Shown: positions 1-41,316 of the stretch, one piece after another
Layout: the number at the start of each line of letters is the position of its first letter
Position numbering within the stretch: the stretch's first letter is position 1
UHGV virus genome: UHGV-0262680
Reading direction: 5' to 3' (one strand)
DNA length: 41,316 nt
From: a virus
Notes under the pieces: model-generated
The model's input: the letters and a program-made list of their open reading frames with translations, nothing else
What the model was told of the DNA's origin: nothing
Databases searched by the model: none
Translations under genes and position numbers: made by a program

Positions 1-86
1 TGAGAGTCATATTCGCCCTGACTTTCCAGAACCATACGAACTGCCCGTTGACGGACCTCGGGGGAAAAACGTGTATTTTTAGTCAT
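1..86 (-). CDS. IS3-family transposase OrfA, N-terminal fragment (partial)
   Basis: Minus-strand ATG at 86-84 gives MTKNTRFSPEVRQRAVRMVLESQGEYDS, an IS3-family OrfA N-terminus recalled as IS629/IS1203-like; truncated by the window edge. Confidence 0.7.
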   Translation of the reverse strand, partial: MTKNTRFSPEVRQRAVRMVLESQGEYDS

Positions 87-140
87 CCTGTTTACCTCTT
101 TCTCAGGGAGTTTAGTCTCCAGGATTCCCGGGGCGGTTCA
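1..140 (-). mobile_element. IS3-family insertion sequence, terminal 140 bp (element continues left of window)
   Basis: Bases 1-140 are the exact reverse complement of 41178-41316. The element end reads TGAACCGCCCCGGG... on the minus strand and terminates at 140; the orfA start codon lies 54 bp inside the end. Confidence 0.8.
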
Positions 141-270
141 GGTAATACATCCTACTGGAACAGTTTTAATGTCAAAAACCATTTCCGGTTATGGAAATAT
201 GGATTCAACCAAAGCTTTTGTTGGAAAAGTAAAAAGAAAATGTTAGCGATTGAATCCAATTTCCCATACG

Positions 271-2112
271 TTACTGCTGTGTTGCCTCAGTAGCAAACAG
301 CGGTCTGATGGCATTCGCAGCGTTATTTATCGCTCTTTCATAGGCTGGTGTTCCTGCTTTGGTGTTTGCCAAACGAAGAAGCATATTCCTTGCTGCTTTG
401 GACTCATACAAGCGCATCATTGCACCAAAACCAGCCTCAAGCCCCATTGATACGCCAAGGGTCGCAGTTGCGCCAATCGTCCTTATCCTGTTGGCTTGCG
501 ATTGCCCCGTCTGAGTTACTACATTTGCGGTGTCTGACCTTGCTGTTTGCTGTAGAACTTCATGAAGAGCATCAAGCTCTTTCATGTGCTTTCCAGAAAA
601 AATAGTGTTGTAAATTTCACCGCCTGACTGAGATTTCAGCTTATTAACTTCAGTGATGAACTTGGCTGGAGAGTCCCCGGCCTTTTCCGCTATTTTGCTG
701 ACGTAAGCTGCACGCATAGCATCTTTCCCCTTATCATCCAGTGCGCTCCAGATTCGTTTCACGTCAGATGGTTTTCTGCTTAATACAACGGTATTTATAA
801 GTTCAGGACTGGCTTCACTGCTTGCCTTGTTGAGCTTGTTGGCAATGTTTTTATTAAGCACCTTATTATAAACGTTTGCATAATCGGAATTTGCTTTAAG
901 GTATTTTGCTGCGTCTGATGCACCGAGGTTTTTAGCAACTGCGTTACGAAGGTCTTTTGACATTGCATTCTCTACCATATTGGTAGCTGCTTTTGCCTGG
1001 TTGGGGAAGACCATAGCATCTCCCTGAACATTAGATCTAAATGCTGTTCTGTGCTGACGCAAGAGATCAAACGTAACATCCAAATCAGTTGCAGGGTTTG
1101 CTAATTCTTCACGTAGGTTACGCAAGGATGTAAGCAGGCTTTGATTGGCAGACGTCCCAAGCCGTTCCTGTCTTGCGATCGCTGTATTCAGAGCATTCAT
1201 GGTATTTGTGGTATCAACTGCGGCATTACCCATTTTATTGGTGACGTCATTGATAACAGCGCCAGCGGCATCCTTCCGCCCCCTTAACGTGGTGGTCAGA
1301 GATTTCACCACATCATCAGGGTTGTACTCACCAAAACGGTCAAAATAATTGCTTACCAGCTTACTCCGCGTTGCATATTGCTCTGCTCGCTTTGAGCCCG
1401 TCCCGAGCAAAGCCCCCTCGGCATCCTGAGTAAGGCCGCGAGTGAAAGCATTTTTCGGCGGGATAACATCAGATGTCATTGGTGTCACGCCCATCGATTC
1501 TGATGTGGCAATTTTCTTCGCCACTTCTGGCGCAATATCACCTTTTATAGCCGTTATTCCACGCCCTATTCCCTTTGCTGCTGCGGAAAGAACACCCTGA
1601 GCGGCAAGGTTAACTCCGGCATTTTTAGCTGCATTTTGTGCGAAATCGCCTTTCTGATTTGCGGCCTCTGCCAGCGATCCAATAGCCATGCTTCCTGCCG
1701 TTCCAACTCCTGGAACTAAATACCCACCAATTGTTTCACCGGCTTGTGCGTATGGGTCTGTCGGTTTGTCTACTGGACGATAAACATCATCCAAAACTTT
1801 TGGCCCACCAAGCCCCTGACTGATTGCATTAATCAGACTTGCGCCACCCTGCAATACGTCAAATGGTATGTTTACCAGACCACGACCAGCCTGTTCTGCA
1901 ATTTGCCCTGCACTTTGACCACCAGTGAGCCAATCGCCAGCTTGTTGCATCAATGATGGTTCTTCACGTACTGGTGCATTATTGGCCTGATTAACTGTTT
2001 GTTGCTGAACAACCTGACCAGCAAAATAATCATCAATGGCGGCTCCAATATCTTCCGTGCTCGTACCATCAGGGAAGGTAAATGTCTTACCGTTTGCAGT
2101 TACTTTCATCAT
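271..2112 (-). CDS. P22 gp16-like ejection (internal virion) protein, 613 aa
   Basis: Size and order match the P22 7-20-16 ejection gene set (about 229/471/609 aa). The ATG overlaps the upstream stop in an ATGA junction at 2109-2112. The protein is Ala/Gln/Asn-rich, as ejection proteins are. Confidence 0.6.
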
Positions 2113-3524
2113 TCCACCGTAAATTGAATGACTGATTTTGAGGTATATGATCCAACCTGATTCCGTGGTTCTCCTGAAGGTGTCGAATCTTGTGCTGGCG
2201 CTGCGTCAGTATTCAATGACATATACCGCTTAACGGCACTCCCCAATGATTCACCTTTTTTAACATCCAACCCCAATATCTGACCGCCATTACGCGATTG
2301 TCCAGGATTGCCATTCGCGCTCATCCACTCAGCTTTAAACTCATTAAACTGCGCGTTTCGTCGCTCAAGGTTTGCCATTGCATCAAGCCATCTTGCGACC
2401 GTCTCAGGGTTATCCATGTCAGTTGGCGCACCCTGCCGAACGATCTCAACGTCTTTATCCGTTGCTGGGCCGGGAGGTAGGAATTTAAGAACCTGACTGT
2501 TAACAAGGGCATTTTGGCGGATGCGCAAATCACGCAATGTCGTATCGCTTCCGGTAAGTTTTGCGAACATGTTCTGTGCGTTACCGAACAAACCTGTCGT
2601 TGGTTTTTCTGCTCTGAACTGTTGAGCAAGCGCACTCATAGAATTGGCTGAGTTTGATGATGCTGTGGCATTGTTTACAGCCGTCTCGATGCCTTTTTCC
2701 ATGTTTACTGACAGCTTAGGTGCTTCACTAATCAACTGCTGAGCCTTTTCCTGCGCTTGCTGCATCTTAAACCCGAACTCTTGCTGATCCAGAGCCAAGC
2801 GTTGTGCTGCGATATTGTGCCCAGTCATTGCTGACTGATAGGAAAGGTTTTGCCCTCTCGCCTGAAGTGCTTCACCAGCCTGATTGCTGCGGATTGTCTC
2901 TGCCAGCCTGCCTCGGTCAATTTCACGACCAGCCATCTTATCCTGAACAGCAAACGCCTTTTCTGGTCCAAGCGCACCGAGAGACATAGTAGTCAGCATG
3001 TGTGATAGCTGCTCTGGATTCTGGATACCTGTCTGAATCATCCAGTCAGCATTAGCACCAACGCGATTTAACCTGTCCTTGTTGTCAGTAATGAATTTAC
3101 TGTAGGCTTCCGGTCCCTGAGAAAGAGCGACGTTAGCCCTCATGGCTAAATCGCCCATATCGTTGCGTTGCTGATCATTAAGACCAGAAAACGCCTGTTG
3201 TGCCTGTGCAACAAACGCTGGATTTTCCTGGGCAAACTTAAATAGTCCCGATGGATCACCAGAAGCCCATGCATCAGCGTGAACCTTATTGAACGCACTA
3301 ATCGCTTTCTGTTGCTGTTCCTGATTGTAAATATCAGCAACTCCAGCCAGACCACGTAACGCGGTCAGACCAACGTTATTTGCACCTGAGCGAGCCAACT
3401 CATTGTTTTCGCGGATCAGACCAAGCGTTGCGTTAATGTCGCTTGCCTTTGGCGCATTCTCATTTTGCGTACCGATGCCAGCCAGAAAACCACCAGAATT
3501 AATACCATGTTGCCACGTAGCCAT
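2109..3524 (-). CDS. P22 gp20-like ejection protein, 471 aa
   Basis: 471 aa equals the recalled length of P22 gp20; it sits between the gp7-like and gp16-like ORFs and is Gln/Ala/Asn-rich. Confidence 0.6.
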
Positions 3525-3533
3525 GATTACCCC

Positions 3534-4226
3534 TTAAAACAACGAGCCAAGCAGACCAAGACCGCCGCCGATCGCAGCCCCCCACGGAGTGGATGAACCA
3601 ATTAATTTCGCAAGTCCAGCCCCAGCAATAGCACCAGACGCACCTCCGCCAATAGCAGATTGCATTGCTGATGGTCTGTTGGCATTTGCCGCTGCAAGAG
3701 CCGCACTTTGCTGAGAAATCTGACTCATGTTGTTGGCATATGTCTGCCCGGCGTTTGCCTGACCTTGCAGTGCGCCAAGACCAACATTTGCCAGATTCTG
3801 GTAGTTGTTCATCTGACCAGATAGCCATTGCTGACCAAGCGTTGGTGCGATTGTTGCTAACTGATTACTGGTTGCGGTGGAACCCAATCCACCTGTTGCT
3901 TCCGCTGCAGCCAGACTCTGATAGCGAGCCTGACCTGCAAGGTCTTTATACTGCTGAGAGTTGTAATACTGGTTAAGCGCCTGACCTTGCCCCTCCAGAG
4001 ACGATAAGTTCTCGAGGCTGCCGACATACTTCTCAGCCAGAGGAGTAAACGGTTTCAGGTTGTTCATGATGGTGTTGAACTGCTGATTTTGCAGGTCTGC
4101 GGCATACTTCTGAGCTTCTGCTGCATACTTTGCGCTTTTATCAGAGCTGCCACCTTTCCCGCCTTTTTCATGGCAATAAGGTTCCTCGCCGCGCAGTTTT
4201 CTGCCCAGCTTAAATGCATATAACAT
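3534..4226 (-). CDS. P22 gp7-like ejection protein, 230 aa
   Basis: ATG at 4226-4224 with a GGGAGA ribosome-binding site that now lies 24 bp from the Mu right end. Size and position match P22 gene 7. Confidence 0.6.
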   Translation of the reverse strand: MLYAFKLGRKLRGEEPYCHEKGGKGGSSDKSAKYAAEAQKYAADLQNQQFNTIMNNLKPFTPLAEKYVGSLENLSSLEGQGQALNQYYNSQQYKDLAGQARYQSLAAAEATGGLGSTATSNQLATIAPTLGQQWLSGQMNNYQNLANVGLGALQGQANAGQTYANNMSQISQQSAALAAANANRPSAMQSAIGGGASGAIAGAGLAKLIGSSTPWGAAIGGGLGLLGSLF

Positions 4227-4245: not shown

Positions 4246-4250
4246 GGAAT
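4246..4250. repeat. 5-bp target-site duplication GGAAT (left copy)
   Basis: GGAAT immediately outside the Mu right end is repeated at 37939-37943 immediately outside the Mu left end; Mu transposition makes 5-bp duplications. Confidence 0.85.
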
Positions 4251-4330
4251 TGAAGCGGCGCACGAAAAACGCGAAAACGTTTCACGATAAATGCGAAAAC
4301 TTTAATTTTCGTGCTTCAAACGAAACAGCG
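4251..4330. promoter_or_regulatory. Mu right end (attR) with repeated CGAAAA-type transposase-binding motifs
   Basis: Matches the recalled Mu R-end sequence; the motifs CACGAAAAACGCGAAAACG, TTTCACGATAAATGCGAAAAC and TTTTCGTGCTTCAAACGAAA fit R1-R3-type MuA sites. Confidence 0.6.
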
Positions 4331-4350
4331 GCATTAACCGCTGTTTTTTT
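4325..4350 (+). terminator. Intrinsic-terminator-like hairpin with T-run at the Mu right end
   Basis: ACAGCGG-CATTAAC-CGCTGT followed by TTTTTTT on the plus strand, between the mom stop and the element end. Confidence 0.4.
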
Positions 4351-4365
4351 ATTCATAACGTGGGG

Positions 4366-5103
4366 TCACTTCGGGTATGGCTGAACCCTGAATAGTTTGG
4401 TGTTTAGGCGTTTTCTTGCGCGCTTGTTCAGGAACCTGATGTAGCGATATTGATTAAATTTGTGTACCACTGCCCGTTCCTTATTAGCCCGCAAATACTC
4501 GCCTCGTTGACCTCCGCGCTTAATCGCGTTCATCGCTATCTCGTGATACCACTCGCCGTCCAGTTCGTAGAATGTGCTTTCATGGCTGCCAATAAAATCA
4601 AAATTCGACGCCTGATATGCCACGCCAGCACGCCCGCAGCGTTCGTCTGCAAAGGACTGAACCCACTCCACTGACGGATACAGTAACCTGATGGTTTTCA
4701 GCGCGTAGCTGATGGCCCGTGATTCAGAATTGCGGGGCATGTCGTCGTGTAACCACATGCGGTTCAGTTCCATGTAACCCCGGTTATCTGTTTCAAGCAC
4801 GACACGACGCCCTGAGTTGGGATTAAGGGCATATCCCCACTGAAGAACGCCAACCAGATCACGTCCGCTGAATACGCCCAGATGCAGGTAGGAGTTATTC
4901 ACAAAACGGCGGGAATAATGCTTTGTCTGAATGATTGTGCGGGCCAGCCAGCAGGATATGGTTTCAACGCGCAACTCCTTTGAACCATAGCCGACAATCC
5001 GGCCTTCATACTCAATAACGCAGGGTTTTGTCAGAATGCGTGATTTCTTCTCTTTTCCCACAATACAGCTCCGTGGGATGCTCTTTGGCATTCGATATGA
5101 CAA
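4366..5103 (-). CDS. mom: Mom DNA-modification protein
   Basis: Last gene before the right end and overlaps the 3' end of com, as in Mu. The track start at 5103 is TTG; the first ATG is at 5091 (MPKSIPRS...). Confidence 0.65.
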
Positions 5104-5197
5104 TGTAACGTTTACAGCGAGGGCATTTAATTTCTATATGCTTAAAACCTCCTTTAAACAGTAACTTATTGCAGTTTTTACAGCGAACAGAGTCCAT
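5012..5197 (-). CDS. com: Com zinc-finger translational activator of mom, 61 aa
   Basis: ATG at 5197 after AGGGGGAA gives [61 protein letters not shown], carrying the CKNC...CPRC zinc-finger pattern of Mu Com. Confidence 0.8.
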
Positions 5198-5270
5198 GAT
5201 TCCCCCTGTGTAATAACCAGATACGACCACCCGGAGGGCTGGGGATATTTAACCACACATGATGTAAAAC

Positions 5271-5298
5271 GACGATCGATATGATGGTATCGATCGTC
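5271..5298. promoter_or_regulatory. Perfect 11-bp inverted repeat with two GATC sites upstream of com-mom
   Basis: GACGATCGATA-TGATGG-TATCGATCGTC; the GATC sites are at 5274-5277 and 5292-5295, about 75-100 bp upstream of the com ATG. Confidence 0.45.
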
Positions 5299-5337
5299 AT
5301 AATCTATACAAAACGCTTAATTATTAACCTTTTTGAG

Positions 5338-5808
5338 TCAGCTTTCTGCGGCACTCTGAGAAAGAGGCTCTGCTATCAGGGACAGCAGTCTCTCTGTCTG
5401 TTTTCTGTTTTCGAGGGTAATTGCGCAATCCCGTTTCACCTCCTCTGCATATAATCTGACACTTTCCGCACTTTTTTGTATCTGCATTGCAATCTCTTCG
5501 AACTTTTTAAGAGATTCAGGGCGCAAATCTGCATCTGTCACCGACAAAAAATCGTTAAGCGAACCGTCCTGTGAATCTTCATAAACGCGAATGATGCCGA
5601 TTTCTGAAAGGCGCTGTGCGCTCTGTGTCAGGCGAACACTGTACACGCCCGGCAGAACGGGGAAGTCGTACTCCCCGCTCTGTGTAGTGACGTGGCTGAA
5701 AACACCTTTCAGAATCCCTGCACGGTTGTGCAGGGAGGTCAGCGTGATGGTTGTGCCGCCCAGCGGTTCTCCTGTGGGCGTTTTAATCACACCTTTAAGC
5801 TGCGGCAT
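5338..5808 (-). CDS. Truncated lambda-Stf-like side-tail-fibre N-terminal domain ORF, about 156 aa (likely gene remnant)
   Basis: From the ATG at 5808: MPQLKGVIKTPTGEPL...IRVYEDSQDGSLNDFL..., resembling the lambda Stf N-terminus (MAVKISGVLKDGTGKP...ITVYEDSQPGTLNDFL). It stops before any fibre shaft or tip and overlaps the end of the tfa gene by 14 bp. Confidence 0.55.
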   Translation of the reverse strand: MPQLKGVIKTPTGEPLGGTTITLTSLHNRAGILKGVFSHVTTQSGEYDFPVLPGVYSVRLTQSAQRLSEIGIIRVYEDSQDGSLNDFLSVTDADLRPESLKKFEEIAMQIQKSAESVRLYAEEVKRDCAITLENRKQTERLLSLIAEPLSQSAAES

Positions 5809-6325
5809 CGGGATGCTCCGGCCAGCTGATGGCATTAAGGGAGGCTTCATCAGTAACGGCGCTTAAATCCAGCGCTTTTACCGCTTTGATATACGCCATC
5901 CACTGCGCAAGACGAGCTTTGTCGTCATCACTGATGACGCCCAGCTCCAGCTCGGTTTTCCAGTCGGAGGTGATGTCCTTTGCTTCAGTCAGCAGATGCT
6001 GGCGTTGTTTTTCTGCCAGTTGCGAATAATCAACAGGAACCGGCAGCACTTCGCCGTCTTTGTAATACCAACTGGCTTCAATGCCAAAGCCTTCCGGCAG
6101 TTCATCAACTTCCACAATGGTGAAGCCTGCCGGATAAAGACGGGACACGTCTTCTGCCATTGAATAAATCACGCCGCTTTCAGGGTGAATGCACAATTTG
6201 TATCTCTTCGTGAATTTGTCCATGGATTCATAAAAATCCTGGCCGTCTTCACTGCGGAAATACTGAATGTTTTCACCATAAGGCATCTCTTTCGGGTAAT
6301 AACGCGTGACGTTTCTGAGTTCCAT
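5795..6325 (-). CDS. Tail-fibre assembly protein (Mu U / Tfa-like), 176 aa
   Basis: ATG at 6325 preceded by TAAGGAG; starts MELRNVTRYYP, the typical Tfa N-terminus, and sits directly downstream of the fibre gene. Confidence 0.7.
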   Translation of the reverse strand: MELRNVTRYYPKEMPYGENIQYFRSEDGQDFYESMDKFTKRYKLCIHPESGVIYSMAEDVSRLYPAGFTIVEVDELPEGFGIEASWYYKDGEVLPVPVDYSQLAEKQRQHLLTEAKDITSDWKTELELGVISDDDKARLAQWMAYIKAVKALDLSAVTDEASLNAISWPEHPDAAA

Positions 6326-6339
6326 TATTTTCTCCTTAA

Positions 6340-7149
6340 TTAGCCGGATACCGTGCGCCATCCGCCATTGATATAAATCTGAGTTTGTTTGTAATACACG
6401 CCGCCGATGTTATCCGCAGAGCTCTTGCCAGTTTCCTGAACGTTAATACCTGACAAAATACAACCTGAAGGCGCGCGAAATACCCAGGAAATTTCGTTAC
6501 CACCGGGATTGTGAAACACTTCGCTGGTATACCTGAAATCACGTACTGCACCAGAATCGGTGCTGCTGATAGTGATATCGCTACTGCCATCAAACAGCAC
6601 ATTGTTAATCCTGCGGGCCGTCTGAAGCCGGGTTGCCGTTCCGGCGTTGCCGCTGATGTTGTTGATGGTGATATCCGAAGTCAGGGGCATGTTGTTGACC
6701 CTGCGGGTATTCGGTACGGCACGACTGGCTTTATCTACCGTGTCACGTAACGAAAGCGCATCTATAAATTCACCGGCCGTGGTTTTGCCAAGAATACCGC
6801 GCACAAACGCACTGAGTGGCGTTAATGACATTGTGTCTTCGCCCGTAAAATACGGGAACGTATTACTCTGACCGGTTAATCCGGCAATAGCCCCAGCTGA
6901 ACCACTGTTAGTGATAAACAGCTTTTTCAGCGCCGTCATAATCTGGTTGGTCGTGTTTTTGTCCGGTTTGATATTTGCCTGCCGGAGAATTTCCAGCATT
7001 TCGGACTGCACGATATTAAACCAGTCCGGCCCCGGATACGTGGGTGGAATACCGTTCCCTCCTTCGGTGAAATAAAGCGTCGTTTTACTGTATTCAGCCG
7101 CGACGGGCGGCATAACCGGCACGCCAGTATTATTATCAATGTGAAACAT
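6340..7149 (-). CDS. Tail-fibre protein (Mu S-like N-terminus), 269 aa
   Basis: MFHIDNNTGV...PPVAAEY N-terminus of Mu/P1 S-type fibres and a conserved FPYFTGEDTMSLTPLSAFVRGILG motif comparable to P2 H/lambda Stf; AGGAG ribosome-binding site. Confidence 0.7.
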   Translation of the reverse strand: MFHIDNNTGVPVMPPVAAEYSKTTLYFTEGGNGIPPTYPGPDWFNIVQSEMLEILRQANIKPDKNTTNQIMTALKKLFITNSGSAGAIAGLTGQSNTFPYFTGEDTMSLTPLSAFVRGILGKTTAGEFIDALSLRDTVDKASRAVPNTRRVNNMPLTSDITINNISGNAGTATRLQTARRINNVLFDGSSDITISSTDSGAVRDFRYTSEVFHNPGGNEISWVFRAPSGCILSGINVQETGKSSADNIGGVYYKQTQIYINGGWRTVSG

Positions 7150-7191
7150 ATCTGATTATTTCTCCTGATATTGTGTATACAGAGATATTTA

Positions 7192-8250
7192 TTATTCAGT
7201 AGCGCTCCTTGCCTGATTAAACAACTCCGCTGTAAAAGTCAGCTCACCCTTAGCGAAGGGAGTGTTCCCTCCTGGTTGAGTCATAAAACTCTGTGAGACA
7301 GTCGTCCAGCTGTTTGTGTCGCTTTGTACGCCATTCTCTGTAATCGTTGCGCCTGCATGGCTGCCATTTTTCACTTTCCAGGCCAGGCGGTTATTGGGGG
7401 CATCAGCACCGCGGTAAGTGACCGAGGCCATAACGGCCACAACATCACTGTTGCTGTTATCCACCGCACCAAACGTGGCCTGTGCGGCATTCAGGGACGG
7501 CGAGAGCATCAGATATCCGGCCTCGCTGTCAGAGGTGTTCAGCCCCGTGACAATATCTTTATTCAGTGAGTTTTTGGCGCTTCCACCGGTAAATGCCGTT
7601 ACCGGGCTGTATCTGACCTCAATGCTTCCGAGCAGGGCGGGTTCTGCACTATTATTTCTACCGTATGTCACTGTTCCACAGTACATATCACCCAGCATTA
7701 ACGTGCCGGATGCACCCGATGAAAAAATATTGTTACCACCACCAATACTCACCTGAATTTTGTCAGTCCGGTCATCTGGTACATAAAACGATGTATTTCC
7801 AACTAATGAGCGGTTGCAGTACAGACTGGCTGAGACATAGCCGTTTTCGTTTCGCGTTGCGAAAATTTCATAGTAATAACTGGCTGCTTCATCAGGATAC
7901 GGGGTTGTAAATGAATAGCCATTAATCCTGATGTGGGATGGCGAAGATGAATATTTCTTTCCCGCACTTAATGTCAGACGAAATCCCAGCTGTACAGCTG
8001 AGGATTTTAAGTCCGGAAGTGTGCTGTACAGTGTGACATATGAGGGTGTCGTAAAAATCAGCCCCGTTCTTTCTACAGTATTTACGGCCTGAGTGCCACG
8101 ACAGACGGATGTTACAGAACCGGACATATCATTGATAAGCGTGACACCGTTTTCGTTCAGTGCTGAAATAATATTTGTTGAATAATAGTTCTCGCACAAT
8201 CCCTCATTCGCCGGAATTTGTCGAAAACTTTCGAGTTTAATAATATTCAA
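7192..8250 (-). CDS. Hypothetical Ser/Thr/Gly/Asn-rich virion protein, 352 aa, probable TTG start
   Basis: Long ORF between the gp48-like baseplate gene and the fibre gene; AAGGAG lies 7 nt upstream of the TTG at 8250. No family recognised from memory. Confidence 0.45.
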   Translation of the reverse strand: MNIIKLESFRQIPANEGLCENYYSTNIISALNENGVTLINDMSGSVTSVCRGTQAVNTVERTGLIFTTPSYVTLYSTLPDLKSSAVQLGFRLTLSAGKKYSSSPSHIRINGYSFTTPYPDEAASYYYEIFATRNENGYVSASLYCNRSLVGNTSFYVPDDRTDKIQVSIGGGNNIFSSGASGTLMLGDMYCGTVTYGRNNSAEPALLGSIEVRYSPVTAFTGGSAKNSLNKDIVTGLNTSDSEAGYLMLSPSLNAAQATFGAVDNSNSDVVAVMASVTYRGADAPNNRLAWKVKNGSHAGATITENGVQSDTNSWTTVSQSFMTQPGGNTPFAKGELTFTAELFNQARSATE

Positions 8251-8273
8251 AGCGGCTCTCCTTTTATTTTATG

Positions 8274-28767: not shown

Positions 28768-28768
28768 A

Positions 28769-29450: not shown

Positions 29451-29464
29451 ATTAAAAAAGATGA

Positions 29465-32202: not shown

Positions 32203-32300
32203 TTTTTATTTCTCAGATATCAGATTCAGGCGCGAGCAATCCCCTGACGCATCGCGCCATAATTAAAAGATTGTGAATTAATTAAATATTAATGGTGGTA

Positions 32301-32825: not shown

Positions 32826-32844
32826 TAAATAAAGCTCCTGTCAA

Positions 32845-33135: not shown

Positions 33136-33151
33136 GCCTCCTTCCCTGAAA

Positions 33152-33421
33152 TTAATGTTTGGTTGCATCCGGGTTATACCGGAATAACTCGCCTTCGGCT
33201 TCCAGCCCATGTTGTCTGGCTGACTTCAACAACTCCTGGGTTGCTTTTTCAATAATTTCAGGAGCCATGCTCTTGATAATGCCTGCCATCACGTCATGTG
33301 GTCCGATTAGCCCCTTAGGAGACTGTTCTTCCAGTTGCACACTCATTCCTACAAAGAAACCTCCTTTTTTCTGAAACTCAACATCTTCCATGCGGTTAAA
33401 TTCAAAGATTACTTTTGCCAT
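33152..33421 (-). CDS. Hypothetical early protein, about 89 aa
   Basis: ATG at 33421 with GAGGAA upstream (the track start at 33475 is TTG). Confidence 0.4.
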   Translation of the reverse strand: MAKVIFEFNRMEDVEFQKKGGFFVGMSVQLEEQSPKGLIGPHDVMAGIIKSMAPEIIEKATQELLKSARQHGLEAEGELFRYNPDATKH

Positions 33422-33453
33422 TTTGTTATTCCTCACAAATAAATAAGCCGTTG

Positions 33454-33681
33454 TTAACGCCAGATAATCTGACAACCATTAAGACGGGCCGTCCATACTG
33501 AACGGGCAACCCCGGATTTATGCTCCATAATTCTGACAGCATTCCTGACAAGCTCCGGTGGCGGACAGGTGATTTCAAGCACCGGGCGGGCCACGCCCAG
33601 CCAGGATTCGTTGACGTGGCTGCCGCGCCCCTGTAACCAGGTCTTTACTTCCGTTGCCATTTTGATATTCCGTGACATCAT
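33454..33681 (-). CDS. kil: Kil-like small protein, about 75 aa
   Basis: First gene after B; ATG-ATG at 33681 after AAGGAG; size matches Mu Kil at about 74 aa. Confidence 0.45.
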
Positions 33682-33694
33682 GATTTCGCTCTCC

Positions 33695-34633
33695 TTACGT
33701 GCGCAGCAGAGTTGAAATATCAACGTCCAGGTCTAATTCACGGAAAGCCTGACGCAGATAATCTTCATTAACACGTTCACCTTTGCCGTGGGCGGTCATG
33801 GCAGCAAGGCGCAGCGAGTGGTTCAGGATGCGAAGCGCACCTGGTTTTTGCGCAATCTGCTGTAATAATTCCCGCTCATTTTCGCCGGTAATCTGCCAGG
33901 CATCCGCAATGGCCTTTACATCATCAATTTTGGTTTTATTGATTGCCGTCCGTTTGGCAATACGGGAAAACAGTCGGGCAAATTCAACCGTTCTGTTACC
34001 ACCGGTCATGTTTGAATAAACGCGGTGATTCCCCATCAGAACAAGGCCAATACGGGCGGATTCCTGCAACAGGCGGAGTTCTTCCAGAACTTCAGCGCCA
34101 AGATGATCAGCTTCGTCGATAATGACCAGCCCCTGCGTACCTTCAAGACGGCGTCTCAAAGCGCGGGAGAGTGGCCCCTTACGGCGTGGTGCGTCATTCA
34201 TTCCCAGTTCATAAGCCAGTTCAGTCAGGCATTCCAGAACACTGGCACAGGATGGGGTAACGGTGATCATCCAGACATTGTTATTGGTGCGACGAAATTC
34301 GCGGGCCGCTTCAGTTTTTCCCACACCTGGATTACCGCAGATAACAGAAATACTTTCAGTCAGGCTGGCAAAACGCATACTCGTCCAGATTTGGCGTGCT
34401 GTTCTGGTTTCCACAAAACGTGGTGGTTCTGGCAGCTCTGCGGCACGGTGATAGTTCTCCAGCCAGCGTTCCAGCGTCTGCGCAACACGTTCATTGTCGC
34501 CGTTGTACTTGTTATTCACGAATGCGCTTAACGTTCCTGCGGCCACGCCAGACTCGCGTGCAATTTGTGCATAAGTCGCTTTTTCACTTTCTACAAGCGT
34601 GCGCAGTCCTGCGCGAATATCGGAAATATTCAT
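33695..34633 (-). CDS. B: MuB ATP-dependent target-DNA activator, 312 aa
   Basis: [15 protein letters not shown]...[41 protein letters not shown]...; Walker A motif GNPGVGKT; 312 aa as in Mu B. Confidence 0.95.
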
Positions 34634-34671
34634 CTGAATAACCTCGTAATTAAATTTTGTTTAAACGTTAA

Positions 34672-36660
34672 TTAAATGGCTTTTTTACGTCTGTTCTGTT
34701 CCAGAATATCCAGCGAATGATTCAGATATTCATCACGATCAGTTTCATATTCATCATCGGGTTCCTGGTATTTCACCTGCACCGTGTTACCGGAAGGCCG
34801 GAAAATACCAACAACCCTTGATTCTGGCGCTGCTGGTTCGGCTATCTGCGGCAGCAGTTCAGCAACTTCCAGCGCGTCCATTTGCTTCTGCGCCTTAATG
34901 GCTGCTTTAGTTGCAGATTTCAGTTGTTTCTGGCGGCGGCGATATTCGCGGCCTGCCGCAGCATCATTAAATGCAACAGGTGCCAGACATTCCGCTTCAC
35001 AGATAAACCGACCGTCCAGGGTGTAGCAATAAACTGTGCTGTGTAGCTGCTGCGGATCAAACCTGACCACAACTTTTTTCACGCCTGCATTCATTAACGC
35101 CATGTTGTAATAAACGTTTTTCGCGCCTTTAAGGGAGCCGCCAACTTTAAGCGTAAACTCGCCTTTGCGTGAAACGTTCACCGCTTCGGCAGGCAGTAAC
35201 AGCATCCGTTTTTGTTCTTCGGTTGGCTTACGCACAATCGTTCTGGCGTATTCACGCTCGAAAACATCATCAAACGAGAGTTTGCCCCCGCACATTTCTG
35301 TTTCACGGCCTGTTCTGGCATTGAACATCGCCACACCTTCGGCAAGGGTTTTCAGAAACAGCTCTGCATCAACAGCGCGGTCGCCATAGTTATCAGGTTT
35401 TGCCTGCGGATTTGGCCCCGTATATGCACCAGCCAGTGCCGGATGCTTATCAACGTATTCCTCAAGCCCACCAACACCGAAAGCACGTTCAACAGGTTTT
35501 GCCTGGCCCCAGCCTTTACCGGCAACAACGCTTGTCCAGTGCATTTTCGCACCCATCAGTAAAAACAGTCCTTTTGGATCGTCCTCTTTTACCTTAAAGC
35601 GGTAGCGATTGGGCGCGCCTCCCGTCAGCCATTTATTCGCAGCACCACGGGTGTTATCAATGGTGATGTGAAAATCCTCCGGGATACCGTAGCGAGTCAC
35701 AACATCCATGAACGAGAGGCGAATTGAATCAATGTTCTCGCTCACATCGCAGCGCCAGCCCAGAATTTTTCGGGTTTTCACATCCTGCCAGAACCATGTT
35801 TTTGGACGGATCACATCACCGTTAAACCAGCGTACAAAGACGTTATGCAGATAACCGTCGCCGTTGATCCACTGCATGGCGTCCAGGTGTTCCACAGTTC
35901 GCTGCTGTGCTGGTATCAGATGCATCAGTGCATGTTCACCTTCACGACAGGCAACAACCATTGCCTCGTCCAGTTGCTGAATCCGGCGAAAGGCCGTGGC
36001 ACGGGAGGGAATACTCCAGCCATGCTCGCGGGCTGCCAGTTCCAGACGCTCATAACATTTGCGGAAGGCGGGCTTTTCCGGTCGCAGATAATCTGCAATC
36101 AGAAACTGCCAGGCATCCTCGTCAAATTCACTTTTGTGAACATTGCGACGGGATGCTCCACGTCCATCAACAAGTGCAGCCGCCCAGTCAGGTTTCGCAA
36201 ACTTCTGTACCTGGTAATACTTGTCCCGCAAAGTGGATGCGCTGACCTGGTAATGCCCTGCAACGGTCGCAAAAGCCGTTTTCGTTGAAATCCCCTGGTT
36301 CAGCATTTCGTCTGCAGCCTGAACCGCAGGCAACCATTTTTCAGCAAGTCTGCGCTGGGAATCGCTGGCGTTATCCCATTTGCTCCACAGCGCCTCGCGA
36401 TCATAATCGTGGGCTTCCAGCGTGGGGCGGGCGATTTCAAAATACCCTTGGCTTGTTTCAATTCTCCCTTGTTGCAACAGAATTTCAGCACGTAATGTGA
36501 CAGGAAATGATTTGATATTGAATTCAAATGATACACCTTTAGTTCCTGCAACCTGCCTGAACTCCCAGCCTTCTCTTTGTGCCTTACGTGTAATGTTAGT
36601 GGCTTGCTTTGGTAAACCTGCCAAACCGAGCAACTCTTTTGCTGTATACCATTCTTTCAT
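34672..36660 (-). CDS. A: MuA DDE transposase, 662 aa (D108-type N-terminus)
   Basis: From ...[49 protein letters not shown]... onward it matches Mu A as recalled; the first ~60 aa differ, as in D108. Confidence 0.95.
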
Positions 36661-36667
36661 AGCGCAC

Positions 36668-36889
36668 CTAGTATCGAGACGGCCAAATATCTTGCGGTGT
36701 CATTCCCAGTGCATCTGCAATGATTTTCTCCGCTTTCGGATATCTCTTATCCAAAGCATTTTTTAATGTTGAAGACGAAAGATGATTAGATCTTCCCAAT
36801 TCAGCTAGTGACATATTGCGTTTTCGTAGCGCTGCAACGATGTCAGCTCTGTGCCAATCTTGGCTGTTAGTTCTTTTATTCATATGCAT
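36668..36889 (-). CDS. ner: Ner DNA-binding regulator, 73 aa
   Basis: ...[23 protein letters not shown]...[22 protein letters not shown]; 73 aa as in D108 Ner. Confidence 0.85.
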
Positions 36890-37074
36890 TTCATGTAATC
36901 CTTTCAGATTCCCCCGTGAGCTACGCTATAAAGTAGCTCACGGCATATCGTGCAATGTAGTGTGGAATCACTTTCAAATCAATAGTGATTTGATAGGATT
37001 TGCCACAATTTTGCATAACGGCATGATTTTTATATGAATTTATTTTATCTCTATTGAAATCACTAGGATTTTAA
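36890..37074. promoter_or_regulatory. Divergent early/repressor promoter-operator region between ner and c
   Basis: 185-bp AT-rich intergenic region between divergent genes; contains the inverted repeats GTGAGCTAC-N8-GTAGCTCAC and AATCACT-N11-AGTGATT. Confidence 0.6.
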
Positions 37075-37599
37075 ATGATGCCTTTTGAAATCAAAGAATG
37101 GTTTAATGCGAAAGAGCTGGAAGGGATGCCTGGTGTACCAAAGTTGGCGACTAACATTACCAGGAAAGCTGTGGCGGAAGATTGGGTAAAACGTCAGCGT
37201 CACGGTGGGAAAGGTGTCGCTTATGAGTATCACATCAACAGTCTGCCAGAAGAAACACGCAGGGCCATTAAAGGAGCCTCACTTTCTGATAAACCAGTGC
37301 ATACATCAATCGCCCATACAGTTGATGAGAGGCTAATTTATGCAATGAGCTTCTTAACACCAGATGAGCAGGCCGCAGCTGTGGAGATCATTCGTGTAGC
37401 AGGGATTAAAGGACTTATGCCTACAATTGTCAGTAAAGATAAGGCATTAGAGGCATTAGGGATTACTGTGGAGCAACAGAAAACCCTGCAAACTCTTCAG
37501 GCATTACCACCGGAAAAAGTGAGAGAGATTTTGTCTCAGTATGAAGGCAAAGAACATAATTTCCCTGTAAGAGAAAACGATGTAAAGAAGGCTGTATAA
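37075..37599 (+). CDS. c: Repressor c (D108-type), 174 aa
   Basis: Divergent from ner; the N-terminus [32 protein letters not shown] parallels the DNA-binding N-terminus of the adjacent transposase ([27 protein letters not shown]), as is known for Mu/D108 repressor and A. Confidence 0.85.
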   Translation: MMPFEIKEWFNAKELEGMPGVPKLATNITRKAVAEDWVKRQRHGGKGVAYEYHINSLPEETRRAIKGASLSDKPVHTSIAHTVDERLIYAMSFLTPDEQAAAVEIIRVAGIKGLMPTIVSKDKALEALGITVEQQKTLQTLQALPPEKVREILSQYEGKEHNFPVRENDVKKAV

Positions 37600-37938
37600 C
37601 AACCAGGTAATGGCTAAGACATAAACTTCACTCCAGGTTATTACATATGTAAGATACCCAAACAGTGATGATTGTTTTTGACACACAGCACTTGCTGAAA
37701 GCCTGGTTGTTACCGTTTTTGAAGCATTTTTGAAGCTGTACTTGAAATGATGCGTGAAGTAATTGCTTTTCGTGTCTTTAATGAATCAAAAGCTGTTTCC
37801 AACAATCTTTCGCGTTTCAAGATGTAACGGCTAAAATCTATCCTACAGGCTTGCAAGCCCCACTAAATCTAATCCCGCCAAATCCCGAATAATCCAATGT
37901 CCTCCCGGTTTTTTTCGTACTTCACGTGAATCAATACA
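37600..37938. promoter_or_regulatory. Mu left end (attL) with transposase-binding sites
   Basis: Terminal sequence rc TGTATTGATTCACGTGAAGTACGAAAAAAACCGGGAGGACATTGG..., with further TGAAGC/TTTCG-type repeats inward. Confidence 0.65.
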
Positions 37939-38377
37939 GGAATTCGATTAGTTCTTCGCGTGTAGCACTGTAAAAAGTCACGTCATCCACGCCTTTGAAG
38001 TATTTCTTGATGGTTCCTACACGCTTAAGGCCAATCATTGCGCAGTACATCTGCCCGTGGCGGAATTTGCGTGCAGCGAACGATGTGACGCACTGAACGG
38101 TGGTGTTAGTCAGAATGTATCGCCAGAACGCCAGACCGATTTCCTTGCTGAATCCACGAACCTCTGGCAGGTACATGGCGTGGCAATCGAATGTCAGCGG
38201 CTGAATCTCCTGATAGTAAACAATGCCGCCGAACTGCCCGTGCACGCTCACCTCAAAGTAACGGCATTCAGGTTTGTAGTCGTATCCATCGCCGTTGTTG
38301 CTCCCGGCGATAATGTCAGGGTGATTTCCGACTGCTTCTATCAGGTCGATGTTTCGCGTTGGTTTGAATGTAATCAT
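37931..38377 (-). CDS. P22 gene-14-like protein, C-terminus altered by the Mu insertion
   Basis: The ORF reads from host DNA into the Mu left end, ending ...ELIEFLY. Joining the flanks across one GGAAT copy restores ...ELIEFLNHGR-stop. Confidence 0.55.
   Translation of the reverse strand: MITFKPTRNIDLIEAVGNHPDIIAGSNNGDGYDYKPECRYFEVSVHGQFGGIVYYQEIQPLTFDCHAMYLPEVRGFSKEIGLAFWRYILTNTTVQCVTSFAARKFRHGQMYCAMIGLKRVGTIKKYFKGVDDVTFYSATREELIEFLY
37939..37943. repeat. 5-bp target-site duplication GGAAT (right copy)
   Basis: Identical to 4246-4250. Confidence 0.85.
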
Positions 38378-39078
38378 CAGTCAATCAGCCCATGTAATCT
38401 AAGTGCCGTTTCAAGCGCCAGAATACGCTGCCGCGCCTGCTGCAAACCTGTAGCGAGAGCTGCGACTTCGGATTGTGTGTACGTAGTGCCGACAGTGTAT
38501 GACTGGTTAGCGTTGAATGAGCCAAGAAGTGGCGTACCTGTGGCTGCAGTCCATCCGGTATTTCTTGCTCCAACAACCTGAATTCCATCAACTGAATATG
38601 ATGTTTTTACATCCAGCGGTGACTCAAGAGACTGCAATTCGGTTACGGTTTTCGATACGTAATCACTCTTAATGCCAGAGACATCGTTTTCTACGTCATC
38701 CAGTCTTTGGTCAACAGTGACCAGATGCGCCTGAATATCGATAACCTCATCCAGCAAGTAATCAACATCGCTACGCAGTACGACTATCTTCCCTTCGGCA
38801 GTTGTTAACCTGACCTCAAGTAGATTTATCGCTTTTGTGTTTGCGGTGATTCTTGCGTCGTGATCAGCCAGTTCGACGTCCTGTTCATCGTTTTTCACCT
38901 GAGCATCGTAAGCGCCCTGACCAGCCTGATTTGCCTTCCCGGCAATTGCGCCGACATCAGCCCCCTGATTAATGACATACAGCAGGTAAGACTGGCTGAA
39001 TATATTGCGTGGAAGGATTGATGTATCGAGCCGCGTCGCCTGCACAATAACAGGGGTGTTGAGATTCGAATCAGCCAT
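38377..39078 (-). CDS. P22 gp26-like tail needle protein, 233 aa
   Basis: [77 protein letters not shown]... closely resembles the P22 tail needle ([27 protein letters not shown]...) as recalled; 233 aa. Confidence 0.8.
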
Positions 39079-40496
39079 TACTCAATCCTTATCTGGCAGC
39101 CAGACAGAGTGACAGGTGACTTCGTGATAACGCGCAATTTGAAGCCGACATTTTTCCTGATGCGCCCGACTCGCTTCCACAAAACGCGTTTGTCGTAAAC
39201 GAACGGTTCATTCTGCTCAATCATCTGCTCACGACCGTAATTTATGCCGTCAGTGGTCGCAGAGAGGAACAGGCGGTCGGCGTACTGAGCTACGCCAGTG
39301 GACGATTCCACCTCCAGATCGAAGCATCTGGCGTTATCCGCTTTGAACAACGGAGTAAACAGAAGGTGTTCCTGTTGAAGCCCATACTGACTGCTGATAT
39401 CGAACTGCAATTTCCCGGTCACCGATTCCAGCTTATCGCCGCACGTTATCTGATTGCCTTCGTAAATGAAGTCGATAGCGCGGTACACATCGTCATACAG
39501 GCCTGTTTTAAGCACACACCATTGCGGACCATTGGCGCTTGAAGATGCGTCGTACACGAGGACGTGACGCGGAAGATGGATAATCAGCAACTCATGAGCA
39601 TCAAACCGCAACGATTCCATCACGCCATCAGCCAGTTCATCAGCAGTGTAGGAGCGGAGGATTTTCTCAATGCTCGCACTGGCGATTGGTGACACCTGAC
39701 CGGAGCCGATGATGTACACAGACGGCGCACCTGTTGCCGGATTGCTGATGAACGCATATGAATCAGAGAATGGCGTTTTGCAGTAAGTCCCGGCGATTCC
39801 TTTTTGCACCATTAGTGATGGCTGTGCGACATACAAAGCGGCACCAACGGTGGTTGCACCAGTCAGGGAAAAATATTCAATCGTCGATGAACCAAAGCAG
39901 ACGATGAAATCTCGCCATGTTCCGATGCCGATGATACCGTCCGGCTGCGATTCTGCCCGATATTGTGCGCTGTAGCGGTCAGGATGCGATTCGTCTTCAA
40001 GGTCAGTGATAAACCATGAATCAGTACCGTCTTTTGACCACGCATAACGCCCACGTAAACGCGTAATGTCACGGACCGAACCTAACTCATACTGCGTGAA
40101 TCCGCTGTCCGTAGGCCAGTTTGAGACGGTTTTAACCGTGCCATCATAGCGGTATTCGACCAGTTGACCATTAACGCCTACCGCCTGTGATGTCCGACCA
40201 TGTGCCATTGATACGCGACCACTTCCGGCAACATCACCAACTTCACTTTCTCCTTTGTACAGCTTGCCACCACACACGCGATAAACAGCACTCTGCGCCA
40301 TGTTGTACTCGACGCCTCGCGATACGCCGTTCACATCAGAACGTTTGGCAATGCCCGGGAATGAGCGAAGATATCCCGATGAATTCAACACCTCCTTGGG
40401 CGTAGCTAAAAGATTGACTGGAAGTTGGTCTATATAATCAGCATTAACCGCACTTTTCCCCAATCCCTTCATTAGTGGTAGTTGTTGTATTGCCAT
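39078..40496 (-). CDS. P22 gp10-like tail hub protein, about 472 aa
   Basis: Immediately upstream of the tail needle gene; from the ATG at 40496 it is 472 aa, matching P22 gp10 (the track start at 40505 is TTG). Confidence 0.65.
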
Positions 40497-41028
40497 TGGA
40501 ATCAACCTTTATATGAACCCAGTTAGCATCACGCTTTAGCCTACTTGCCCAGGTCTTAGATATCCCGTACTTAGCCGCAATTACTGACAAGCTTTCTTTT
40601 GATGACTTGATTGCAAGAACATCGTCATCACTCAACTTGTGTTTTGGGTGCTTGGTTCCGAAAAACTTGATTGGTTTCTTTAATCCGGTGGCGTATGCAT
40701 GTTTGATGTTTTCGCTTTGAGTGCACCACTCAAGATTATTGACGTTATTATTGAGTGGATTGCCATCAATATGATTTACCTGAGGCTTGTTTTCAGGATT
40801 TGGCAGGAATGTCATTGCAACGATTCGATGGGCAAAAGTCCATTTTGCTCCGATATTATAAAGCACCCTTCCCTGATTGATTTTAGGCTTTAACCAGCGC
40901 CCCTTTCTGAGTTGCGTGCTGCCATGCGCAGCCTTAACAACACGTGAGTGAGAATATACCCTGCCATCTTCTGTTACGGCATAAACACCTTCAAATCCAG
41001 GTATATCTTTAGCATTCTCAGAAAGCAT
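40444..41028 (-). CDS. HNH homing endonuclease, 194 aa
   Basis: HNH motif HIDGNPLNNNVNNLEW and a C-terminal helix-turn-helix-like DNA-binding segment; strong AAGGAG ribosome-binding site. Confidence 0.75.
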   Translation of the reverse strand: MLSENAKDIPGFEGVYAVTEDGRVYSHSRVVKAAHGSTQLRKGRWLKPKINQGRVLYNIGAKWTFAHRIVAMTFLPNPENKPQVNHIDGNPLNNNVNNLEWCTQSENIKHAYATGLKKPIKFFGTKHPKHKLSDDDVLAIKSSKESLSVIAAKYGISKTWASRLKRDANWVHIKVDSNGNTTTTTNEGIGEKCG

Positions 41029-41064
41029 ATCTACTCCTTAAAGTTTCGATTTTTCATGTACTTA

Positions 41065-41169
41065 TTATATCAAAATTGCCAGCATATTCACTGGCAGATA
41101 GTCGATATAGTCGGCGTTTCGAAAGTCTTTGCCGACACCTTTCATAAGCGGAAGTTGCTGAATCGGCAT
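41065..41169 (-). pseudogene. Duplicated 5' fragment of the gp10-like gene, 34 codons
   Basis: Translation [34 protein letters not shown]-stop parallels the gp10-like N-terminus [31 protein letters not shown]... Confidence 0.5.
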
Positions 41170-41177
41170 TTATTCAC

Positions 41178-41316
41178 TGAACCGCCCCGGGAATCCTGGA
41201 GACTAAACTCCCTGAGAAAGAGGTAAACAGGATGACTAAAAATACACGTTTTTCCCCCGAGGTCCGTCAACGGGCAGTTCGTATGGTTCTGGAAAGTCAG
41301 GGCGAATATGACTCTC
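41178..41316 (+). mobile_element. IS3-family insertion sequence, terminal 139 bp (element continues right of window)
   Basis: TGAACCGCCCCGGGAATCCTGGAGACTAAACTCC...; inverted copy of 1-140. Confidence 0.8.
41232..41316 (+). CDS. IS3-family transposase OrfA, N-terminal fragment (partial)
   Basis: ATG at 41232 gives MTKNTRFSPEVRQRAVRMVLESQGEYDS. Confidence 0.7.
   Translation, partial: MTKNTRFSPEVRQRAVRMVLESQGEYDS

What the first reader, a model, noticed from the sequence alone, without database searches (positions are those of the whole stretch)
1..41316. Whole segment bracketed by inverted copies of the same IS3-family element
Bases 1-140 and 41178-41316 are exact reverse complements, and both copies have their orfA start 54 bp from the inward-facing end. 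The 41-kb segment could be invertible by recombination between the copies, or mobilisable as a composite unit. The inserted copies also truncate the P22-like prophage on both sides.
Basis: seen in the sequence. Interest (0 to 1): 0.45.

Follow-up and report, generated by a model that had tools for sequence, protein, structure and literature searches.

The report
Contig ends in two IS copies
The matching inverted ends are real, but they are the first 140 bases of an ordinary E. coli insertion sequence at which a short-read assembler stopped. At least one of the two copies is a plain, independent insertion into a dead P22-like prophage that also carries a Mu-like prophage.

Summary
Window 2-141 is the exact reverse complement of 41177-41316. 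The IS proper is 1-140 and 41178-41316, and orfA starts 54 nt from each inner end.

The window is one whole MEGAHIT contig, ena:ERZ27264790:k141_20272 (k = 141). Each end holds k-1 nt of a 1310-bp IS3-family element of the IS629/IS1203/IS3411 type. The equal arm lengths and the apparent truncation are therefore set by the assembler.

I predicted the outer junction of the left copy and found it in the same assembly, on contig k141_12570. That contig continues the same P22-like prophage (tailspike arm) into the E. coli chromosome (yagU-ecp). It ends in 140 nt of the IS right end and carries the matching 3-bp duplication GGT. The left copy is thus a simple insertion, which argues against arrival as a composite unit.

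I could not recover the outer side of the right copy. Its predicted duplication is CAC, just after the gp4 stop codon.

Only 7.3 kb of the 41 kb is P22-like. The other 33.7 kb is a Mu-like prophage with its own 5-bp duplication.

Inversion by recombination between the two copies is possible in principle. It cannot be tested from an assembly. The finding is ordinary and already known.

The parts
1..140 (-). Left IS copy, inner part only: IS positions 1-140 (left inverted repeat TGAACCGCCCCGGGAATCCTGGAGAC..., then the first 28 codons of orfA from the ATG at 86-84). It reads out of the window to the left.
   Evidence: Identical to L005 2502-2641. The IS3-family features were tested on the full reference copy.
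141..143 (.). GGT, the inner copy of the 3-bp target duplication of the left IS.
   Evidence: The outer copy lies on L007 10271-10273, directly abutting the IS right end. Removing the IS and one GGT restores the O111 11128 sequence with 0 mismatches in 430 nt.
141..246 (+). 3' remnant of a small hypothetical gene (122-129 aa when intact) that the left IS splits.
   Evidence: The intact gene is at L001 5738-6106. The 5' part, fused to IS sequence, is protein P0055 on L007.
271..2112 (-). P22-like gp16 (DNA ejection protein).
   Evidence: 100% identical DNA is annotated as P22-gp16 family / DNA transfer protein in many E. coli genomes. There was no Pfam hit.
2109..3524 (-). P22-like gp20 (injectosome translocase).
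   Evidence: Pfam Inj_translocase, E = 9e-118.
3534..4226 (-). P22-like gp7 (ejection protein).
   Evidence: Pfam P22_gp7, E = 6e-133.
4246..4250 (.). GGAAT, 5-bp target duplication of the Mu-like prophage (right-end side).
   Evidence: Read directly from the sequence.
4251..37938 (-). Mu-like transposable prophage, 33,688 bp. The right end TGAAGCGGCGCACG... is at 4251 and the left end ...CAATACA is at 37938. Genes present: repressor, MuA, MuB, kil, gam, gemA, mor, lysis, terminase, portal, head, contractile tail, baseplate, com and mom.
   Evidence: It is 99.96% identical, with no gaps, to a prophage at a different site in E. coli NCCP 13717.
37939..37943 (.). GGAAT, 5-bp target duplication of the Mu-like prophage (left-end side).
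   Evidence: Read directly from the sequence.
37931..38377 (-). P22-like gp14 (DUF2824). Its last codons are replaced by read-through into the Mu left end.
   Evidence: Pfam DUF2824. This exact chimeric protein is on record on this one contig only.
38377..39078 (-). P22-like gp26 position (233 aa, tail needle).
   Evidence: Assigned by synteny with annotated prophages. There was no Pfam hit.
39078..40496 (-). P22-like gp10 (packaged-DNA stabilisation protein, 472 aa).
   Evidence: Pfam Phage_stabilise, E = 1e-296.
40444..41028 (-). HNH/NUMOD4 homing-endonuclease gene.
   Evidence: Pfam NUMOD4 + HNH_3.
41077..41169 (-). 31-codon N-terminal remnant of gp10, left upstream of the HNH gene.
41175..41177 (.). 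CAC, the predicted inner copy of the 3-bp target duplication of the right IS. The site is immediately downstream of the gp4 stop codon in uninterrupted relatives.
   Evidence: Empty sites ...CATTTATTCAC|CTATGCG or |CTCACGT occur in five complete genomes. The outer copy was not recovered.
41178..41316 (+). Right IS copy, inner part only: IS positions 1-139. It reads out of the window to the right.
   Evidence: Identical to L005 2502-2640.

Best explanation
The window is one complete contig of a MEGAHIT (k = 141) metagenome assembly of an E. coli population. Two copies of a 1310-bp IS3-family element (IS629/IS1203/IS3411 type) inserted independently, in opposite orientations, into the late operon of a P22-like prophage. 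That prophage lies next to yagU-ecp on the chromosome. One copy sits in a small gene downstream of gene 16. The other sits in the short spacer between gp4 and gp10. A de Bruijn assembler cannot pass a repeat longer than k, so the contig stops k-1 nt into each copy. This produces two equal, exactly complementary 140-nt arms and the appearance of a truncated prophage. The copies are best read as static transposition scars. Together with a Mu-like prophage that transposed into gp14 between them, they cut the late operon in three places and leave the P22-like prophage defective. SHOWN: the contig identity and k; the identity of the arms to a complete IS; both junctions of the left copy with the duplication GGT and collinear flanks; the Mu-like insertion with the duplication GGAAT. 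INFERRED: that the right copy is complete and has CAC duplicated with gp4 beyond it; that both copies lie in the same genome; that the segment is in its original orientation.
For:: the record name is k141_20272 and the contig length of 41316 equals the window; three independent contig ends stop at 140 nt, 139 nt plus 1 shared flank base, and 140 nt of IS, which is k-1 each time; the complete 1310-bp copy has TG...CA inverted repeats, orfA/orfB with an annotated programmed frameshift, an rve (DDE) domain and a 3-bp duplication (CGC); the fusion protein I predicted for a simple insertion (the first 95 residues of the hypothetical protein, 88 from PGAP's later start, plus VEPPRFSWRVFYL) exists exactly once in about 15 billion proteins. 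It lies on contig k141_12570 of the same sample, which ends ...CATGGGT|TGAACCGCCCCGGTTTTCC. L007 plus the window, minus the IS and one GGT, equals the O111 11128 sequence with 0 mismatches. L007 1-6445 is E. coli chromosome (ecpC-ecpD-ecpE-ykgJ-yagU) at 99% identity; the right inner flank ends exactly where uninterrupted relatives continue into the gp4 stop codon; neither junction occurs in 5,426 complete E. coli genomes, JGI metagenomes or GTDB representative genomes, so these are private, recent insertions. PMC3271280: 62% of IS629 copies in O157:H7 lie in prophages or prophage-like elements, and IS629 duplicates 3-4 bp.
Against: The outer junction of the right copy was not recovered, so a deletion or rearrangement endpoint there is not excluded. 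Only 140 nt at each of three ends is seen in this sample, so completeness of the copies is inferred from identical reference copies. Recombination inside the IS leaves every junction unchanged, so the present orientation of the 41-kb block and any orientation mixture are invisible. The sample is a metagenome, so linkage of the two insertions in one genome rests on an unbranched assembly path.
Confidence: 0.85

Rival explanations
1. The 41-kb block is an invertible segment. RecA-dependent recombination between the two inverted 1.3-kb IS copies flips it, so both orientations coexist in the population.
For: The copies are inverted, and their inner 139 nt are identical. Recombination between inverted IS copies is a well-known cause of inversions in IS-rich enterobacteria (established knowledge).
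Against: There is no positive evidence. This is a generic property of any inverted repeat pair. The block contains only disrupted prophage late genes and a Mu-like prophage, with no promoter/gene arrangement that a switch would control. The test is impossible on a k=141 assembly because the junction sequences do not change on inversion.
Confidence: 0.08
2. The block is, or arrived as, a composite transposon bounded by the two IS copies.
For: Two copies of one IS flank a segment, as in Tn10/Tn5-type elements.
Against: The left IS has its own 3-bp duplication on both of its sides. Its outer and inner flanks rejoin into a contiguous prophage sequence known from other genomes. The right inner flank is likewise collinear with uninterrupted prophages. 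The unit's junctions and its marker protein occur nowhere else. In this arrangement both outer ends would be right ends. IS3-family elements move by copy-out/paste-in through a circle that joins one left and one right end (established knowledge).
Confidence: 0.02
3. The right IS copy marks an IS-mediated deletion or rearrangement endpoint, so the prophage really is truncated on that side.
For: The outer right contig could not be found. A related genome (Z1323HEC0422) has an IS3-family element joining gp4 directly to an integrase remnant, which is an IS-associated deletion in the same kind of prophage.
Against: The failure to find the contig is explained by method. gp4 has no unique fusion product, its exact sequence in this strain is unknown, and the common variants sit on hundreds to over a thousand contigs. 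The left copy proved to be a simple insertion.
Confidence: 0.1
4. The contig is a metagenomic chimera: the two IS insertions belong to different strains and never bracket one segment in a single genome.
For: The source is a metagenome assembly.
Against: If uninterrupted and interrupted versions coexisted at comparable depth, the graph would branch at each insertion point. The contig would then end at the junction, not 140 nt inside the IS. The 41 kb between the junctions is a single unbranched path. All three insertions (two IS, one Mu-like) are private to this sample, which fits one clone.
Confidence: 0.04

Closest known systems
IS629 / IS1203 / IS3411 (IS3 family, IS3 group) insertions in E. 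coli prophages
   Same: The reference copy is 1310 bp with TG...CA inverted repeats. It has orfA/orfB with a programmed -1 frameshift (the record marks a pseudoknot feature there), an rve (DDE) transposase and a 3-bp duplication. The insertions lie inside a prophage, as do most IS629 copies in O157:H7 (PMC3271280).
   Different: This sequence variant is the less common one. It is at least 99% identical in about 308 of 20,395 E. coli records, while most records match at 95-99%. Which named isoform it is was not determined, because no ISfinder comparison was available. Both insertion sites appear to be private to this sample.
IS-mediated chromosomal inversions (recombination between inverted IS copies, as in Shigella, O157, Bordetella, Yersinia)
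   Same: The substrate exists: two identical IS copies in inverted orientation, 41 kb apart.
   Different: No inverted product has been observed. Nothing suggests more than the background potential of any inverted repeat.
Composite transposons with inverted IS arms (Tn10, Tn5)
   Same: The superficial architecture is the same: IS, segment, inverted IS.
   Different: The duplication belongs to a single IS, not to the unit. The flanks are collinear with the native prophage. The IS family is different, with a copy-out/paste-in mechanism. The unit has not been seen elsewhere.
Contig-end repeats in de Bruijn assemblies
   Same: Each contig end carries k-1 nt of the repeat (k = 141), at three independent ends in this assembly.
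   Different: Nothing differs. This is the textbook signature, with the detail that both ends of one contig run into the same repeat in opposite orientation.
Bacteriophage Mu and Mu-like prophages (Mu, D108, SfMu)
   Same: The ends match Mu ends (TGAAGCGGCGCACGAAAAACGCGAAA... and ...CAATACA). There is a 5-bp duplication, MuA/MuB/repressor/Gam/Mor, Mu-type head and contractile-tail genes, and com-mom.
   Different: Only the com-mom end is similar at the DNA level, at about 88%. The element is 3 kb shorter than Mu and has no gin/G-segment. The same phage occurs near full length in 40 of 5,426 E. coli genomes.

Membership tests
IS3 family insertion sequence | Terminal inverted repeats ending 5'-TG...CA-3' | tested here: met
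   The left repeat TGAACCGCCCCGGGAATCCTGGAGAC is in the window. The right repeat TGAACCGCCCCGGTTTTCCTGGAGAG is on L007. The two match at 23 of the first 26 positions.
IS3 family insertion sequence | Length of about 1.2-1.55 kb with two overlapping ORFs (orfA, orfB) joined by a programmed -1 frameshift | tested here: met
   This was tested on the reference copy only (L005, 1310 bp, CDS annotated 'programmed frameshift' with a pseudoknot feature). The reference copy is identical to the 140 + 140 nt of both ends seen in this sample. The interior of the copies in this sample was not seen.
IS3 family insertion sequence | DDE transposase with an rve (integrase core) domain in OrfB and a helix-turn-helix domain in OrfA | tested here: met
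   Pfam HTH_Tnp_1 (OrfA), and rve plus HTH_21 (OrfB), on the reference copy.
IS3 family insertion sequence | 3-4 bp target-site duplication | tested here: met
   Left copy: GGT at window 141-143 and at L007 10271-10273. Reference copy: CGC. Right copy: the inner CAC only, with the outer side not recovered.
Composite transposon | The target duplication lies at the outer ends of the whole unit, and the inner junctions have none | tested here: not met
   The left IS carries the same GGT on its inner and outer sides, and its flanks rejoin into native prophage sequence.
Composite transposon | The unit is found in more than one genomic context | tested here: not met
   No junction occurs in 5,426 complete E. 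coli genomes, JGI metagenomes or GTDB representatives. The marker chimeric gp14 is on one contig only.
Invertible DNA segment | Both orientations are observed in a population | not testable with these tools
   Only a k=141 assembly is available. Recombination inside a 1310-bp repeat leaves all junction sequences unchanged.
Invertible DNA segment | A dedicated site-specific invertase with short inverted sites | tested here: not met
   No invertase or recombinase family was hit among the ORFs scanned, and the Mu-like phage lacks a gin/G segment. Some small ORFs were not scanned.
Mu-like transposable phage | Mu-type ends, a 5-bp duplication, MuA (DDE_2) and MuB | tested here: met
   The ends and the GGAAT duplication were read. 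MuA shows DDE_2 at E = 2e-136. MuB shows Phage-MuB_C. The same phage lies at another site with the duplication GCGGG.
P22-like prophage | Late-gene synteny gp4-gp10-gp26-gp14-gp7-gp20-gp16-...-tailspike | tested here: met
   gp10, gp14, gp7 and gp20 have Pfam hits. gp16 and gp26 are assigned by identity or synteny to annotated prophages. The tailspike (Head_binding) and Mnt/Arc lie on outer contig L007. gp4 was not seen in this sample.

The most novel reading that the evidence does not exclude
The IS-bracketed 41-kb block, which carries an apparently intact Mu-like prophage, actively flips or is moved as a unit in this E. coli population. That would couple IS recombination to the orientation or mobility of a transposable phage nested in a dead prophage.
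Probability: 0.04. Interest if true: 0.3.

Novelty: already known. Interest (0 to 1): 0.07.

Why it matters
The main value is as a caution for genome scans. A contig whose two ends are exact inverted copies of k-1 nt of an IS is the expected signature of a short-read assembly that ran into a repeat. It is not evidence for a special bracketed unit or a truncated element. Biologically, the locus is a clear example of a prophage acting as a tolerated landing pad. Three private mobile-element insertions (two IS copies and one 33.7-kb Mu-like phage) lie within 7.5 kb of P22-like late genes. This fits what is already known about IS629-type elements and 'grounded' prophages.

Tried and rejected
1. 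A homologue search with the predicted left fusion protein did not list it. It was hidden as a member of a 90% cluster, and the first listing of cluster members did not show it either. The exact-sequence look-up with the correct GTG start found it.

2. The right outer junction was not recovered. gp4 ends in its own stop codon at the junction, so no unique fusion product exists. Five gp4 variants from complete genomes were confirmed in the collection. Four variants were looked up: two of those five and two other members of the same cluster (P0056, P0057, P0062, P0063). None came from ERZ27264790. The window's exact HNH protein occurs in 1,569 blocks of the collection and pairs with at least two gp4 families. 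The gp4 of this strain therefore cannot be guessed.

3. Exact scans for both inner junctions in JGI metagenomes and GTDB representative genomes found nothing.

4. No complete E. coli genome has either junction. Comparison with related genomes that share the IS copies, to look for orientation variants, was therefore impossible.

5. I considered whether the flanks could be host DNA packaged with Mu, and rejected the idea. The flanks are 3.2-4.1 kb on both sides, they assemble uniquely, and they continue into the chromosome.

6. The IS isoform (IS629, IS1203 or IS3411) was not resolved.
Full report
**Observation**

Reading both ends and the repeat scan confirm that window 2-141 is the exact reverse complement of 41177-41316 (140 nt). 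A script check gave the same length. Base 1 is unpaired.

The sequence is the left end of an IS3-family element. It begins TGAACCGCCCCGGG..., so the IS proper occupies 1-140 and 41178-41316. The extra matching base on each side is flank that happens to be identical. Both copies read out of the window.

The next-longest inverted repeat in the window is 21 nt, so chance is not an issue.

**What the window is**

An exact look-up of a protein unique to this window returned one contig, ena:ERZ27264790:k141_20272, of length 41316. The protein used was the gp14 whose C-terminus reads into a Mu end. The window is therefore a whole contig.

The 'k141_' prefix is MEGAHIT's naming for a final k of 141 (my own knowledge of the program). 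A de Bruijn contig that enters a repeat keeps k-1 nt of it. Here the left end holds 140 nt of IS. The right end holds 139 nt plus one flank base shared with the other junction, which makes 140. A third, independent contig end from the same assembly (below) holds exactly 140 nt of the other IS end.

The equal arm lengths are therefore set by the assembler. So is the impression that the prophage is cut off at the IS.

**The IS**

The 141-nt arm matches 5,782 E. coli records. It is at least 99% identical in about 308 of them and 95-99% identical in most.

A 100%-identical complete copy in strain 14EC007 has these features:
- It is 1310 bp long.
- It has TG...CA inverted repeats.
- Its transposase CDS is annotated with a programmed frameshift and a pseudoknot feature.
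- OrfA has HTH_Tnp_1, and OrfB has HTH_21 plus rve domains.
- It has a 3-bp duplication (CGC).

This is the IS629/IS1203/IS3411 type. PMC3271280 treats those three as isoforms. It also reports 3-4-bp duplications and that 62% of IS629 copies in O157:H7 lie in prophages or prophage-like elements.

**What lies between the copies**

On the minus strand the window reads, from right to left:
- HNH/NUMOD4 endonuclease
- gp10
- gp26
- gp14
- 33.7 kb of other DNA
- gp7
- gp20
- gp16

(and annotation of identical DNA).

The 33.7 kb (4251-37938) is a Mu-like prophage. Its ends match Mu's right and left ends and it is flanked by a 5-bp duplication, GGAAT. It encodes repressor, MuA, MuB, Kil, Gam, GemA, Mor, lysis functions, terminase, Mu-type portal, protease, major head protein, sheath, tube, baseplate, Com and Mom. 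It entered six or seven codons before the gp14 stop.

The same phage sits in a different gene in E. coli NCCP 13717, with the duplication GCGGG. The two copies differ by 14 mismatches in 33,688 nt, with no gaps. It occurs near full length in 40 of 5,426 complete genomes. Against isolated phages, only the com-mom end is similar, at about 88% to Mu, D108 and SfMu.

So only about 7.3 kb of the 'P22-like' segment is P22-like.

In E. coli O111:H- 11128 the left flank continues uninterrupted (100% identity from window 141 onward). The insertion point lies inside a small hypothetical gene.

If the IS were a simple insertion with a 3-bp duplication, an outer contig should encode the N-terminal part of that protein through ...RVIDSW (88 residues from PGAP's ATG, 95 from the GTG start) fused to VEPPRFSWRVFYL, read from the IS right end. 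With the GTG start suggested by the ribosome-binding site, this exact 108-aa sequence exists once in the collection.

It lies on ena:ERZ27264790:k141_12570 (10,413 bp), in the same sample. That contig ends ...ATCGACTCATGGGT|TGAACCGCCCCGGTTTTCCTGGAGAG..., with exactly 140 nt of the IS right end.

Joining it to the window, after removing the IS and one GGT, reproduces the O111 sequence with 0 mismatches in 430 nt.

The contig carries the rest of the prophage arm:
- a 139-aa gene
- Mnt/Arc
- a tailspike with a Head_binding domain
- a 261-aa gene

It then runs into E. coli chromosome (yagU, ykgJ, ecpE, ecpD, ecpC) at 99% identity to strains such as E2348/69.

The left copy is therefore an ordinary insertion with its own duplication. 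On this side the prophage is interrupted, not truncated.

**The right copy**

In five complete genomes the inner flank ...CATTTATTCAC continues directly into the gp4 stop codon (CTA... on this strand). The IS therefore sits in the short spacer between gp4 and the gp10 start. The predicted duplication is CAC.

I could not recover the outer contig. No fusion product marks it, and gp4 variants are numerous and widespread. Four look-ups of gp4 variants returned no contig from this sample. This part remains inferred, and an IS-associated deletion is not excluded. One such deletion exists in a related prophage.

**Interpretation**

Two independent insertions in opposite orientation are the best-supported reading.

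Origin as a composite unit is contradicted, for three reasons:
- The duplication belongs to a single IS.
- The flanks are collinear with native prophage.
- Neither junction, nor the unit's marker protein, occurs anywhere else. The places searched were 5,426 complete E. coli genomes, the look-up's index of gene positions in public assemblies, JGI metagenomes and GTDB representatives.

Inversion by homologous recombination between the two 1.3-kb copies is possible, as it is for any inverted repeat. It would leave every junction sequence unchanged, so a k=141 assembly cannot speak to it. Nothing in the block suggests a regulated switch. No invertase family was hit among the ORFs scanned, though some small ORFs were not scanned. 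The genes at both ends belong to an operon already broken in three places.

A strain chimera is unlikely. Coexisting empty sites at comparable depth would have broken the contig at the junctions rather than 140 nt inside the IS.

**Verdict**

It is wrong or unsupported on truncation, on the composite unit and on any special invertibility.

This is a known kind of event (IS629-type insertions in prophages) seen through a known assembly signature. Interest is low. The nested Mu-like prophage is the most noteworthy content of the window, but it too belongs to a phage already present in dozens of sequenced E. coli genomes.

Noticed in passing
window 4246-37943: A 33,688-bp Mu-like transposable prophage with the 5-bp duplication GGAAT is inserted six or seven codons before the stop of P22-like gp14. 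It is 99.96% identical to a prophage at another site (duplication GCGGG) in E. coli NCCP 13717, and is near full length in 40 of 5,426 complete genomes. Only its com-mom end resembles Mu, D108 or SfMu at the DNA level (about 88%).
   Followed up: yes
window 5338-7149: The Mu-like prophage has no gin invertase or G segment. The ORF with a tail-fibre N-terminal domain (5338-5850) is only 170 aa, and its counterpart in NCCP 13717 is annotated as a pseudogene lacking its C-terminus. The phage may therefore have a defective or unusual tail fibre.
   Followed up: partly
window 40444-41169: An HNH/NUMOD4 endonuclease gene lies between a 31-codon N-terminal remnant of gp10 (41077-41169) and the intact gp10. 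This looks like a homing-endonuclease cassette that duplicated the start of gp10. The exact HNH protein is very widespread (1,569 blocks of the collection). Other P22-like prophages carry a NUMOD4 gene at a different position, between gp10 and gp26.
   Followed up: partly
window 21848-21890 and 29409-29451: A 43-nt direct repeat (91% identical) folds, on the minus (coding) strand, into a GC-rich hairpin followed by a run of U. These look like two copies of an intrinsic terminator at module boundaries of the Mu-like prophage (z-scores -2.7 and -3.1).
   Followed up: partly
L007 7350-8756: The tailspike of the P22-like prophage, on the neighbouring contig of the same sample, combines the P22 Head_binding domain with a GDPD (glycerophosphodiester phosphodiesterase) domain. 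This is an uncommon receptor-destroying module.
   Followed up: no
L002 13590-15570 (E. coli Z1323HEC0422): A related P22-like prophage between dacD and sbcB has an IS3-family element joining the gp4 start directly to an integrase remnant. This is an IS-associated deletion of the whole early and head region.
   Followed up: no
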